64,000 nt of DNA, taken from assembly GCF_048403405.1 (NCBI RefSeq), contig NZ_CP183129.1; one strand, given 5' to 3'. Made by a program: the position numbers and the translations under genes. This DNA is from Escherichia coli (lineage in GTDB: Bacteria > Pseudomonadota > Gammaproteobacteria > Enterobacterales > Enterobacteriaceae). Of this stretch, positions 36,541 through 38,374 are shown piece after piece. Under the pieces are notes generated by a model. The model was not told the DNA's origin, searched no databases, and saw only the letters and a list, made by a program, of their open reading frames with translations. Positions within the stretch are counted from its first letter, which is position 1. Each line of letters opens with the position of its first letter.

Positions 36541-36672
36541 GTTCGGGAGCAGCGTGCTCCCCTCCCCCTAACCCTCTCCCCAAAGGGGCGAGGGGACTGT
36601 TTTGTGCGTGTTGAAACAACGAGTACCGCTTTTCCGTTCACTTTCTGGGGAGAGGGCCGGGGTGAGGGTGGC
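36541..36672. repeat. GC-rich palindromic intergenic repeat element (family not assigned)
   Basis: Motif ccctaaccctctccccaaaggggcgagggga with inverted partner ggggagagggccggggtgagggtgg; related copy at 38324-38374. Confidence 0.6.
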
Positions 36673-36686
36673 AGCCCGCACGATAC

Positions 36687-38009
36687 TTACAACGACTGAT
36701 GTCGTGTCTCATGGGTCAGCAGCAGGGCGATTAACGTCAAGCCAGCCATCGCCGCCAGATATAACCCCACCGCACCTAACCCGTAGTTAGTCTGCAACCA
36801 GGCTGCGATATACGGCGCAACGGAAGCCCCGAGAATCGACGCTACGTTGTAAGAGAATGATGCTCCGGTGTAACGCACTTCTGTCGGGAACAGCTCTGGT
36901 AACAGCGCGCCCATCGGCCCGAAGGTCAGCCCCATCAGACTTAACCCCAGCAGCAGGAAGGCAAAAACCAGAATCGGGTTGCCAGAACCGAGCAGCGGGT
37001 TAAAGGCGAACAGCGCGAACAGGATGATCAGCGTGGTGATGATTACCATGCTTTTACGGCGACCAAAGGCATCAGCCAGTAATCCGGCGACTGGCACCAT
37101 CACGCCAAAACCAATAACTGCCATCATCAGCATCCACAACACTTCGTTACGCGGCAGGCCAAGCCCAACGGGCGCGGCGGCGGTACTAAAGGTCATAGAG
37201 TAGACCGTCATGATGTAAAACAGCGTATAGGTTGCCAGCATAATGAACGTACCCAGTACGGTTACGCGAACATGTTTGGTCAGCAGCGTACCCAGCGGGA
37301 TCTTCACCTGTTTTTTCGCTTTAGCGACTTTCTCAAACACCGGCGACTCATGCAGCGACACGCGAACATACAGGCCGATAATGACCAGCACCGCCGAGAA
37401 GATAAACGGCACGCGCCAGCCCCAGCTCATAAACTGCTCGTCGGTCAGTAGCCAGGAAAGCAGTAAGAAAGTGCCGTTGGCAAAGAAGAAGCCAATCGGT
37501 GCGCCCAGCTGCGGGAAGGAGCCGTACAGTGCACGTTTGCGCGGTGGGGCGTTTTCAGTCGCCAGCAGCGCCGCTCCGCCCCATTCGCCGCCTAAGCCCA
37601 GACCCTGACCAAATCGAGCCAGTGCCAGCAGCAGCGGGGCGAAAATACCAATCGTGGCATAGCCCGGCAGCAGACCAATCACCACGGTCGAAATCCCCAT
37701 CGTTAGCAACGAGGCGACCAGCGTCGCTTTACGCCCAACGCGATCGCCAAAATGACCAAAAACGGCAGAGCCAATGGGGCGCGCGACGAAGGCGATGGCG
37801 AAGGTGGCGAGCGACTGTAGCGTTGCTGCCGTTGGATCGCCCTGCGGGAAGAAGATATGCGGAAACACAATAACGGCCGCAGTGGCGTAAATATAAAAGT
37901 CGAAGAACTCAATGGCCGTGCCAATGAGAGAGGCGACAAGGACTTTATTACGCGAGTTGATCGGCGTGTATTCTTGCTCGTGGTCGAGTGTTGTGGCTGT
38001 TGCTTGCAT
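36687..38009 (-). CDS. yhjE: MFS transporter YhjE (metabolite:H+ symporter family)
   Basis: 440-aa 12-TM ORF; length matches K-12 YhjE. Confidence 0.92.
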   Translation of the reverse strand: MQATATTLDHEQEYTPINSRNKVLVASLIGTAIEFFDFYIYATAAVIVFPHIFFPQGDPTAATLQSLATFAIAFVARPIGSAVFGHFGDRVGRKATLVASLLTMGISTVVIGLLPGYATIGIFAPLLLALARFGQGLGLGGEWGGAALLATENAPPRKRALYGSFPQLGAPIGFFFANGTFLLLSWLLTDEQFMSWGWRVPFIFSAVLVIIGLYVRVSLHESPVFEKVAKAKKQVKIPLGTLLTKHVRVTVLGTFIMLATYTLFYIMTVYSMTFSTAAAPVGLGLPRNEVLWMLMMAVIGFGVMVPVAGLLADAFGRRKSMVIITTLIILFALFAFNPLLGSGNPILVFAFLLLGLSLMGLTFGPMGALLPELFPTEVRYTGASFSYNVASILGASVAPYIAAWLQTNYGLGAVGLYLAAMAGLTLIALLLTHETRHQSL

Positions 38010-38323
38010 AATCTTTTCTTATTTTTTGGCTAACGAATAGCCATATTACGCACAGCAAAAGTGATATTTCAATGTGTAACAAATCGCGAAAATGGTCAAA
38101 AACCAGGCAAAAAGGGGATAATGTTTAGGCCAGTGATTTTTCTTCTATGAAATGCTTCACATAATTATTATAAATAGTGGATAAAACTGGTTTCAGGTTA
38201 AATAAAAGTTACCAACTGGATTTATATGCTGGGGTTATGAGTTGGTATGAAATTGTTTGCTCCTGAAGAGATGTAGTTTCAGGTGGTTATGTGCATGTCG
38301 TTGCCTGGTCTCTGGCTGGCTTG

Positions 38324-38374
38324 TACCCCCTCACCCTAATCCTCTCCCCGAAGGGGCGAGGGGATCGACCGTGC
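38324..38374. repeat. GC-rich palindromic intergenic repeat element, second copy
   Basis: ccccctcaccctaatcctctccccgaaggggcgaggggatc; shares core motif with element at 36541-36672. Confidence 0.6.

What the first reader, a model, noticed from the sequence alone, without database searches (positions are those of the whole stretch)
36541..38374. Related GC-rich palindromic elements flank yhjE
Two elements sharing the core ccctctcccc(a/g)aaggggcgagggga occur at 36541-36672 (with an inverted partner forming a long potential stem-loop) and at 38324-38374, on either side of yhjE. They resemble dispersed intergenic repeat families rather than simple terminators, and could act as mRNA stabilisers, insulators or recombination or insertion hotspots. 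I could not confidently assign a family.
Basis: seen in the sequence. Interest (0 to 1): 0.25.

Follow-up and report, generated by a model that had tools for sequence, protein, structure and literature searches.

The report
BoxC repeat elements flanking yhjE
The two GC-rich elements on either side of yhjE are copies of BoxC (also called PIT or TM_ECO), a known short repeat scattered through E. coli intergenic DNA; in this strain they sit where most strains, including K-12, carry REP repeats.

Summary
A 38-nt direct repeat (36559-36596 and 38327-38364, 92% identical) flanks yhjE, and the first copy has an inverted partner at 36646-36673. Its unit is CCCTCNCCC-loop-GGGNGAGGG-loop-GGGNGAGGG.

- Copy 1 fits the published pattern exactly (type A).
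- Copy 2 fits with one mismatch (type A).
- The partner is a truncated type B unit. It arose by a 61-nt deletion between two G-blocks of a longer allele found in about 27% of E. coli genomes.

The family is dispersed. Matches occur in 5,399 of 5,426 complete E. coli genomes, with a median of 14 places per genome. It is not in Rfam.

Both sites are polymorphic. K-12 and most strains carry REP elements there instead. BoxC occupies the yhjG-yhjE gap in 29% of genomes and the yhjE-yhjD gap in 11%. In seven other Enterobacteriaceae species a BoxC unit also starts 9-21 nt after the yhjE stop codon.

Published tests found no promoter or terminator activity, triplex formation only in isolated single strands, and raised local sequence variability. 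The element is already known, so interest is low. The hairpin / REP / BoxC alternation at one gene end is the only mildly new point.

The parts
36515..36686 (.). Whole yhjG-yhjE intergenic gap, stop codon to stop codon. This is the BoxC-short allele, and the entire 172 nt differ from the K-12 (REP) allele and from the 40-nt (hairpin-only) allele.
   Evidence: Allele comparison across the window and 9 E. coli loci. A BoxC allele is present in 1,599 of 5,426 genomes and the REP allele in 3,578.
36560..36594 (-). BoxC / TM_ECO unit, type A with one mismatched triplet. On the - strand it reads CCCTCGCCC-CTTTG-GGGAGAGGG-TTA-GGGGGAGGG.
   Evidence: Exact match to the published pattern CCCTCNCCC N3-6 GGGNGAGGG N3 GGGNGAGGG (pattern from PMC4666352).
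36541..36607 (-). Extended type A unit, including the family-typical flanks: 5' GCAC....CAGTC before block 1, and a 3' flank after block 3.
   Evidence: Alignment with 10 K-12 BoxC units plus flanks.
36608..36633 (.). Spacer between the back-to-back units. It shares TGAAAC.AC..CCGC..TTTTC with the spacer of the K-12 lldD-trmL BoxC pair.
   Evidence: Sequence comparison from the loci printed and the alignment.
36634..36668 (+). Truncated type B unit: a degenerate block 1 (CCGTTCACT), then GGGAGAGGG-CCG-GGGTGAGGG. The junction of the 61-nt deletion lies at about 36646/36647.
   Evidence: Two-block match at 36648-36668. Alignment with strain M10 shows a 61-nt gap between GGGGGAGGGCTG and GGGAGAGGGCTG.
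36555..36673 (.). Long imperfect inverted repeat formed by blocks 2 and 3 of the two units (28-nt arms, 63 nt apart).
38328..38362 (-). BoxC / TM_ECO unit, type A. On the - strand it reads CCCTCGCCC-CTTCG-GGGAGAGGA-TTA-GGGTGAGGG, with one mismatch in block 2. It begins 39 nt after the yhjD stop codon on the yhjD strand.
   Evidence: The flanks fit type A.
38295..38407 (.). Allele-specific segment of the yhjE-yhjD gap. It holds BoxC here and one or two REP elements in K-12. It runs into the last codon of yhjD (CGG here, CCT in K-12).
   Evidence: The allele is present in 599 of 5,426 genomes.

Best explanation
Both elements are members of the BoxC family (also called PIT elements or TM_ECO), a known short dispersed intergenic repeat of E. 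coli and related Enterobacteriaceae.

Shown here:
- A unit is one C-rich block followed by two G-rich blocks.
- The element left of yhjE is a back-to-back pair. It has a complete type A unit and a type B unit that lost 61 nt through a deletion between two G-blocks.
- The element right of yhjE is a single type A unit just downstream of yhjD.
- Both lie in gene-end gaps where most E. coli strains have REP elements instead.

From the literature:
- The isolated G-rich strand forms an intrastrand triple helix in vitro. No triplex was detected in duplex DNA or in vivo.
- The elements have no promoter or terminator activity.
- Their loci are unusually variable between strains.

Inferred mechanism:
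- The elements are not genes or regulators of yhjE.
- The C-block can pair with either G-block, so a unit forms a hairpin on transiently single-stranded DNA and in the 3' untranslated RNA of yhjE, yhjG and yhjD.
- The repeated G-blocks serve as short homologies for slippage and deletion. This would make these gaps hypervariable.
- How new copies arise is unknown.
For: Identity:
- Exact match, or match with one mismatch, to the published pattern (pattern).
- Type A loop TTA and type B loop CCG.
- Family-typical flanks shared with 10 K-12 units.
- An A+B inverted pairing like the five K-12 pairs, closest to the lldD-trmL pair.
- Intergenic position.
- Dispersal over 5,399 of 5,426 genomes, median 14 places per genome, almost all chromosomal.

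Instability:
- Four alleles of the yhjG-yhjE gap and at least three of the yhjE-yhjD gap.
- The window allele equals the M10 allele minus 61 nt between near-identical G-blocks.
- The lldD-trmL BoxC locus shows a comparable series: a 12-nt deletion between CCGGGG repeats, a near-total deletion, and a BoxC-less allele.

Structure:
- Unit hairpins fold at about -22 kcal/mol with alternative pairings.
- The whole pair folds at -78 kcal/mol, z -4.

Literature: PMC4666352 and PMC2267715.
Against: - No function has been shown for BoxC, and nothing here tests one.
- In vivo DMS footprinting did not detect the triplex (discussion passage).
- The variability could reflect relaxed constraint in gene-end gaps rather than instability caused by the element. 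REP-bearing alleles at the same sites also vary: 410 vs 392 nt, 181 vs 178 nt.
- Copy 2 departs from the strict pattern by one base, and the type B partner lacks a recognisable block 1.
- The direction of the 61-nt event (deletion, not insertion) is inferred from allele frequencies and from the completeness of the long form. It has not been placed on a phylogeny.
Confidence: 0.85

Rival explanations
1. Functional 3'-end stem-loops. In this view the BoxC units act at the RNA level as barriers that protect the 3' ends of yhjE, yhjG and yhjD mRNAs, or help end transcription between convergent genes. They would be interchangeable with the REP elements or the plain hairpin found at the same spots in other strains, and selection would keep some stable stem-loop there.
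For: - The same gap holds a plain 14-bp hairpin (EPEC, DE17, E. albertii), REP pairs (K-12, Citrobacter youngae, Enterobacter quasihormaechei, Lelliottia) or BoxC.
- In 7 of 34 Enterobacteriaceae species a BoxC unit starts 9-21 nt after the yhjE stop codon, always in the same orientation. Four more species have only the two-block hairpin there.
- In Enterobacter asburiae one BoxC unit fills nearly the whole gap of about 70 nt.
- The yhjD-side BoxC sits where K-12 has two REPs.
- REP elements are known mRNA 3' stabilisers (established knowledge).
Against: - PIT/BoxC elements showed no terminator activity in published tests (cited in PMC4666352).
- No U-tract follows either element, and no terminator-like site is called there.
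- In MG1655 the family lies more often upstream than downstream of ORFs.
- A hairpin-energy comparison across 34 species against coding controls was inconclusive.
- In this window the unit next to yhjE is truncated and folds only through long-range pairing.
Confidence: 0.25
2. A non-autonomous mobile element, similar to a MITE or a REP-like element. BoxC units or A+B composites would be copied to new sites by an unidentified enzyme that prefers gene-end hairpins or REP sites.
For: - Many near-identical copies with conserved flanks beyond the 36-nt core, and a conserved composite architecture.
- Copy number varies from 1 to 28-29 per strain.
- The same slot after yhjE is occupied in several genera. 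Density there is about 75 times that in the rest of those loci: 10 units in 6.8 kb against 4 in 206 kb.
Against: - No target-site duplication and no clean empty site. BoxC-bearing and BoxC-less alleles differ over the whole gap and even in the last codon of the upstream gene, at both yhjD and lldD.
- Coding flanks next to the BoxC alleles show ordinary within-species divergence, 1.8% in yhjE.
- The family is almost absent from plasmids, 39 of 70,777 places.
- It is not linked to transposases or integrases (PMC4666352).
Confidence: 0.15
3. A chance GC-rich similarity, or a locus-specific duplication, unrelated to any family.
For: Only two full copies occur in the 64-kb window.
Against: Zero matches are expected by chance. 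Thousands of genomes hold about 14 copies each at other loci. The sequence matches the published pattern and the listed K-12 copies.
Confidence: 0.01

Closest known systems
BoxC / PIT element / TM_ECO (E. coli intrastrand-triplex motif; Holder et al. 2015, PMC4666352; earlier Bachellier et al. and Hoyne et al., as cited there)
   Same: The three-block pattern, the type A (TTA) and type B (CCG) loops, the conserved flanks, A+B inverted pairing, intergenic location, dispersal at about 14-23 copies per genome, and strain-to-strain variability of the locus.
   Different: MG1655 has no copy at this locus; its 23 listed copies do not include it, and K-12 has REP elements there. Copy 2 has one mismatch to the strict pattern. 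The type B partner is a deletion derivative that lacks block 1.
REP / BIME (PU) elements
   Same: Short GC-rich imperfect palindromes in gene-end gaps. They are often paired in inverted orientation in mosaic arrangements. They occupy exactly these two gaps in K-12 and most strains.
   Different: The sequence is unrelated (GCCGGATG...CATCCGGC type). REP is a two-arm palindrome, not three blocks. REP has a known cognate transposase family (RAYT) and known binding proteins, and BoxC has none. REP is far more abundant, with matches at a median of at least 39 places per genome (an undercount, since a piece limit was reached) against 14 for BoxC.
MITEs such as ERIC/IRU
   Same: The paired form is a 100-230 nt intergenic element with terminal inverted repeats and a long predicted stem-loop.
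   Different: No target-site duplication, no conserved full-length unit, and a modular architecture of 36-nt units. Rfam holds no matching family.

Membership tests
BoxC / PIT / TM_ECO | Pattern CCCTCNCCC N3-6 GGGNGAGGG N3 GGGNGAGGG (one mismatched triplet tolerated) | tested here: met
   36560-36594 (-) matches exactly. 38328-38362 (-) matches with one substitution (GGGAGAGGA). 36648-36668 (+) has only blocks 2 and 3 (pattern).
BoxC / PIT / TM_ECO | Second loop TTA (type A) or CCG (type B) | tested here: met
   TTA in both full copies and CCG in the partner (types defined).
BoxC / PIT / TM_ECO | Sequence similarity to catalogued MG1655 copies beyond the core, i.e. in the flanks | tested here: met
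   In the alignment with 10 K-12 units, type A shares the GC(A/T)C...C(A/G)GTC 5' flank and type B shares the GC..TTTTC(T/C) 5' flank. The window copies follow their type.
BoxC / PIT / TM_ECO | Strictly intergenic, dispersed, multi-copy on the chromosome | tested here: met
   Both elements lie between annotated genes. There are 70,777 places in 5,399 genomes, median 14 per genome, and 39 on plasmids.
BoxC / PIT / TM_ECO | Paired copies combine one type A and one type B unit in inverted orientation | tested here: met
   A(-) plus truncated B(+) in the window. A(-) plus complete B(+) in the longer M10 allele. This is the same layout as the K-12 lldD-trmL pair.
BoxC / PIT / TM_ECO | The G-rich strand forms an intrastrand triplex in vitro | not testable with these tools
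   Shown by CD and NMR for consensus oligonucleotides in PMC4666352. It has not been measured for these exact variants.
REP / BIME | REP consensus palindrome (GCCGGATG...CATCCGGC or GCCTGATG...CATCAGGC type) | tested here: not met
   Absent from the window's two gaps and present in the K-12 alleles of the same gaps.
Intrinsic terminator | GC-rich stem-loop followed directly by a T/U run | tested here: not met
   No terminator-like site overlaps 36515-36686 or 38295-38401 on either strand. The sequence after the stems has no T run.
Any Rfam RNA family | Covariance-model match at or near the gathering score | tested here: not met
   Only sub-threshold miRNA-model noise: 21-25 bits against gathering scores of 68-95, E 0.12-0.56.

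The most novel reading that the evidence does not exclude
The gap right after the yhjE stop codon may be a conserved 'slot' that different lineages fill with one of three unrelated stem-loop elements: a plain hairpin, REP, or BoxC. BoxC sits there in the same orientation in at least five genera. In E. coli it is a standing polymorphism against REP (29% vs 66%). This would mean one of two things. Either BoxC is targeted to gene-end hairpin or REP sites by an unknown copying mechanism, or selection keeps a structured 3' end there and BoxC serves as a REP equivalent. Neither has been described for BoxC in the papers I could read.
Probability: 0.2. Interest if true: 0.45.

Novelty: already known. 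Interest (0 to 1): 0.15.

Why it matters
For annotation, these stretches should be labelled as BoxC repeats. The short ORFs that overlap them (for example 36455-36619, 36474-36641 and 38257-38400) should not be called genes. For biology, the locus is a compact example of how E. coli intergenic gaps are swapped wholesale between repeat families. It also shows how the repeated G-blocks of BoxC give rise to deletions. This supports the published link between this motif and local genome variability, but it does not open a new question.

Tried and rejected
- **Rfam scan.** It returned only weak miRNA-model noise, so there is no curated RNA family.
- **Promoter and terminator scan.** Nothing overlaps the elements, so the simple-terminator reading is rejected.
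- **G-quadruplex reading of the G-blocks.** I considered it because GGGG-AGA-GGG-TTA-GGG-TGA-GGGG fits the G4 rule. The published NMR work excluded it in favour of a triplex.
- **Clean insertion with target-site duplication.** I compared BoxC, REP and 40-nt alleles at the yhjG-yhjE gap, and BoxC against BoxC-less alleles at lldD-trmL. The alleles differ across the whole gap, and no duplication or empty site is visible.
- **Recent import from another species.** The coding flanks of the window's BoxC alleles show ordinary E. coli divergence. By contrast, the 40-nt allele of DE17 and EPEC does sit next to a strongly divergent yhjE 3' end.
- **Hairpin-strength test for selection across 34 species.** It was inconclusive: median -26 vs -20 kcal/mol, and only 18% of loci fell beyond the 5th percentile of the control.
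- **Supplement search of PMC4666352 for yhjE, yhjD and yhjG.** No hits, so I cannot say whether their 62 catalogued loci include this one.
- **First fetch of four K-12 BoxC pairs.** I used a wrong coordinate shift and had to repeat it.
- **The 926-genome figure.** This count of genomes covering at least 80% of the 161-nt query is not an allele count, because the long allele splits the query. Searches give the usable counts.
- **ygfF-gcvP locus search.** Variation there is dominated by presence or absence of ygfF, so it was not informative.

Full report
**1. The observation**

The region holds yhjG (34439-36514, +), yhjE (36687-38009, -) and yhjD (38402-39415, -). Gene names come from the RefSeq annotation of matching E. 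coli genomes. The repeat finder reports a 38-nt direct repeat, 36559-36596 and 38327-38364, at 92% identity. It also reports an inverted pair, 36555-36582 / 36646-36673.

It occurs nowhere else in the window at up to 3 mismatches, and none are expected by chance. Seven of the eight GGGNGAGGG blocks in the 64-kb window lie in these two elements. The 161 nt around the first element fold at -78.1 kcal/mol (+ strand) and -71.6 kcal/mol (- strand), about 4 sd below shuffles.

**2. What the elements are**

A literature search led to Holder et al. 2015 (PMC4666352). That paper describes a G/C-rich motif 'earlier described as BoxC', re-described as the PIT element, and named TM_ECO by the authors. The published pattern is CCCTCNCCC N3-6 GGGNGAGGG N3 GGGNGAGGG. 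Type A has the second loop TTA and type B has CCG.

- The minus strand of 36560-36594 reads CCCTCGCCC-CTTTG-GGGAGAGGG-TTA-GGGGGAGGG. This is an exact match, type A.
- The minus strand of 38328-38362 reads CCCTCGCCC-CTTCG-GGGAGAGGA-TTA-GGGTGAGGG. This is type A with one mismatch.
- 36648-36668 (+) is GGGAGAGGG-CCG-GGGTGAGGG. These are blocks 2 and 3 of a type B unit, preceded by a degenerate block 1.

I fetched the five K-12 loci where an A and a B unit are paired and aligned all units with 30-nt flanks. Type A units share a GC(A/T)C...C(A/G)GTC flank before block 1. Type B units share GC..TTTTC(T/C). The window's copies follow their type. The spacer of the window's pair resembles that of the K-12 lldD-trmL pair, which has the same back-to-back layout.

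An independent survey lists BoxC as a known E. coli stem-loop family, 56 bp long with 32 reported copies (PMC2267715). Rfam has no matching family. I recall, but could not read, a 1999 survey by Bachellier and colleagues stating that boxC repeats are part of a larger composite element. The conserved spacers seen agree with that.

**3. Dispersal**

blastn of the 161-nt first element against 5,426 complete E. coli genomes finds matches in 5,399 of them. There are 70,777 places in all, a median of 14 and a maximum of 28 per genome, and only 39 on plasmids. Holder et al. report 23 copies in MG1655, 1-29 per E. coli strain, many in Enterobacter and none in Salmonella.

**4. The locus is polymorphic, and K-12 has REP here**

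MG1655 has no BoxC near yhjE. Both gaps hold REP elements instead.

I found four alleles of the yhjG-yhjE gap by comparing the window with nine other E. coli loci:

| Allele | Length | Example strains | Genomes of 5,426 |
|---|---|---|---|
| Plain hairpin only | 40 nt | EPEC E2348/69 derivative, DE17 | within the remaining 249 |
| REP/BIME | 178-181 nt | K-12, O157 | 3,578 |
| BoxC-long | 233 nt | M10 | 1,469 |
| BoxC-short | 172 nt | the window | about 130 |

The BoxC-short count is an estimate: 1,599 genomes with any BoxC allele minus the 1,469 with the long one. The alleles differ from one stop codon to the other.

The yhjE-yhjD gap carries BoxC in 599 genomes and one or two REPs otherwise. 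The allele-specific segment reaches into the last codon of yhjD. The two gaps assort independently. M10 has BoxC on the left and REP on the right, and CUVET19-970 has the reverse. Only six genomes match the window's 2.5 kb at 99% or more.

**5. Origin of the truncated partner**

The window and M10 alleles are collinear except for 61 nt present only in M10. That segment is bounded by GGGGGAGGGCTG and GGGAGAGGGCTG. M10 has a complete type B unit, and the window has a hybrid of a decayed unit and that complete unit. The long form is about eleven times commoner and is structurally complete. I therefore infer a deletion between G-blocks, although this has not been placed on a tree.

The lldD-trmL BoxC locus shows the same behaviour:
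- a 12-nt deletion between CCGGGG repeats in O157;
- a near-total deletion in GTEN_24;
- a BoxC-less allele in UPEC 536 that again differs from the last codons of the upstream gene.

This fits the published finding that TM_ECO loci are far more variable between strains than control gaps. It also fits the 'palindrome effect', in which parts of paired units are lost.

**6. Other species**

I fetched yhjE loci from GTDB species representatives.

- In 7 of 34 Enterobacteriaceae species a three-block BoxC starts 9-21 nt after the yhjE stop codon. These are Enterobacter asburiae, E. cloacae, two Pseudocitrobacter, a Buttiauxella, isolate RIT691 and Cedecea neteri.
- The first unit is always antisense to yhjE, as in the window. 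Four of these species have back-to-back pairs: the two Pseudocitrobacter, Buttiauxella and RIT691.
- Four more species have only the two-block hairpin.
- Elsewhere in the same loci there are 4 units in 206 kb, against 10 units in 6.8 kb after yhjE.
- Other species have REP pairs or a plain hairpin at that spot.

Three explanations remain open: an old BoxC kept as a polymorphism, a preferred insertion site, or selection for any stem-loop. I could not separate these. A hairpin-energy test against coding controls was inconclusive.

**7. How it most likely works**

Shown: the elements are BoxC units, they are structure-prone, their blocks mark deletion end points, and the loci are hypervariable. 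Unit RNA hairpins fold at about -22 kcal/mol, with block 1 pairing to either G-block.

From the literature: isolated strands form a triplex in vitro, but the duplex does not, and DMS footprinting found none in vivo. PIT elements block DNA polymerase in vitro. They showed no promoter or terminator activity.

Inferred: the elements are neither genes nor regulators of yhjE. The right-hand unit lies 319 nt upstream of the yhjE start, beyond the promoter-like sites at 38196-38167 and 38072-38043. They act as fold-back DNA and RNA that is tolerated in gene-end gaps and that promotes slippage and replacement there.

The rival readings are a selected 3' stem-loop equivalent to REP, and a mobile element with an unknown enzyme. 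Both remain possible but lack direct support. No target-site duplication or clean empty site was found, and the coding flanks show ordinary divergence.

**8. Verdict**

Novelty is 'already known' and interest is low. The alternation of hairpin, REP and BoxC in one conserved gene-end slot is the only point that may go beyond what I found in print.

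Noticed in passing
L001 11110-11290 and 9377-9786 (K-12 equivalents of window 36515-36686 and 38010-38401): K-12 MG1655 carries REP/BIME elements, not BoxC, in both gaps flanking yhjE. The REP allele of the yhjG-yhjE gap is in 3,578 of 5,426 genomes. Its REP words match at a median of at least 39 places per genome, an undercount because a piece limit was reached.
   Followed up: yes
L037, L039, L040, L041, L045, L047, L074 at about 3821-3935 (just after yhjE): A BoxC unit starts 9-21 nt after the yhjE stop codon in seven other Enterobacteriaceae species, always antisense to yhjE. Four of them have back-to-back pairs. Four further species (L029, L036, L042, L046) have only the two-block hairpin there.
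   Followed up: partly
L008 and L009 (EPEC E2348/69 derivative, DE17), yhjE 3' end; window equivalent 36687-37170: Strains with the 40-nt hairpin-only gap have a strongly divergent yhjE 3' end. In DE17, 78 of 88 differences from the window fall in the last ~480 nt, and 34 differences fall in the last 500 nt of yhjG. In EPEC, 37 of 49 fall in the last ~430 nt. This looks like an imported or very old haplotype abutting the gap.
   Followed up: partly
window 38405-38407 (last codon of yhjD): The last sense codon of yhjD is CGG (Arg) in the BoxC allele and CCT (Pro) in the REP allele. The replaced segment therefore reaches into the coding sequence. The same happens at the end of lldD between the K-12 and UPEC 536 alleles.
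   Followed up: partly
L002 835-915 (strain M10, yhjG-yhjE gap): The long BoxC allele contains a decayed extra type B unit (CCGTTCACT-TTCT-GGGGGAGGG-CTG). It is followed by a short palindrome-rich stretch that resembles the central spacer of K-12 BoxC pairs. The gap is thus a mosaic of at least three units.
   Followed up: partly
L102, L101, L100, L099 (lldD-trmL gap in four strains): This is an allelic series at a second BoxC locus: a 12-nt deletion between CCGGGG repeats (O157), an internal replacement (Res13), a near-complete deletion leaving one G-block (GTEN_24), and a BoxC-less allele (UPEC 536).
   Followed up: yes
window 36455-36619 (-), 36474-36641 (-), 36602-36790 (+), 38257-38400 (+): Mechanical ORFs of 47-62 aa overlap the repeats. 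RefSeq annotates nothing there, so they are most likely artefacts of the GC-rich repeat sequence.
   Followed up: no
NZ_CP074792.1 1627-1664 (154.7-kb record, H70 and H166): This is one of the few non-chromosomal BoxC matches. A single 37-38-nt copy lies on a plasmid-sized record with no annotated feature under it.
   Followed up: no
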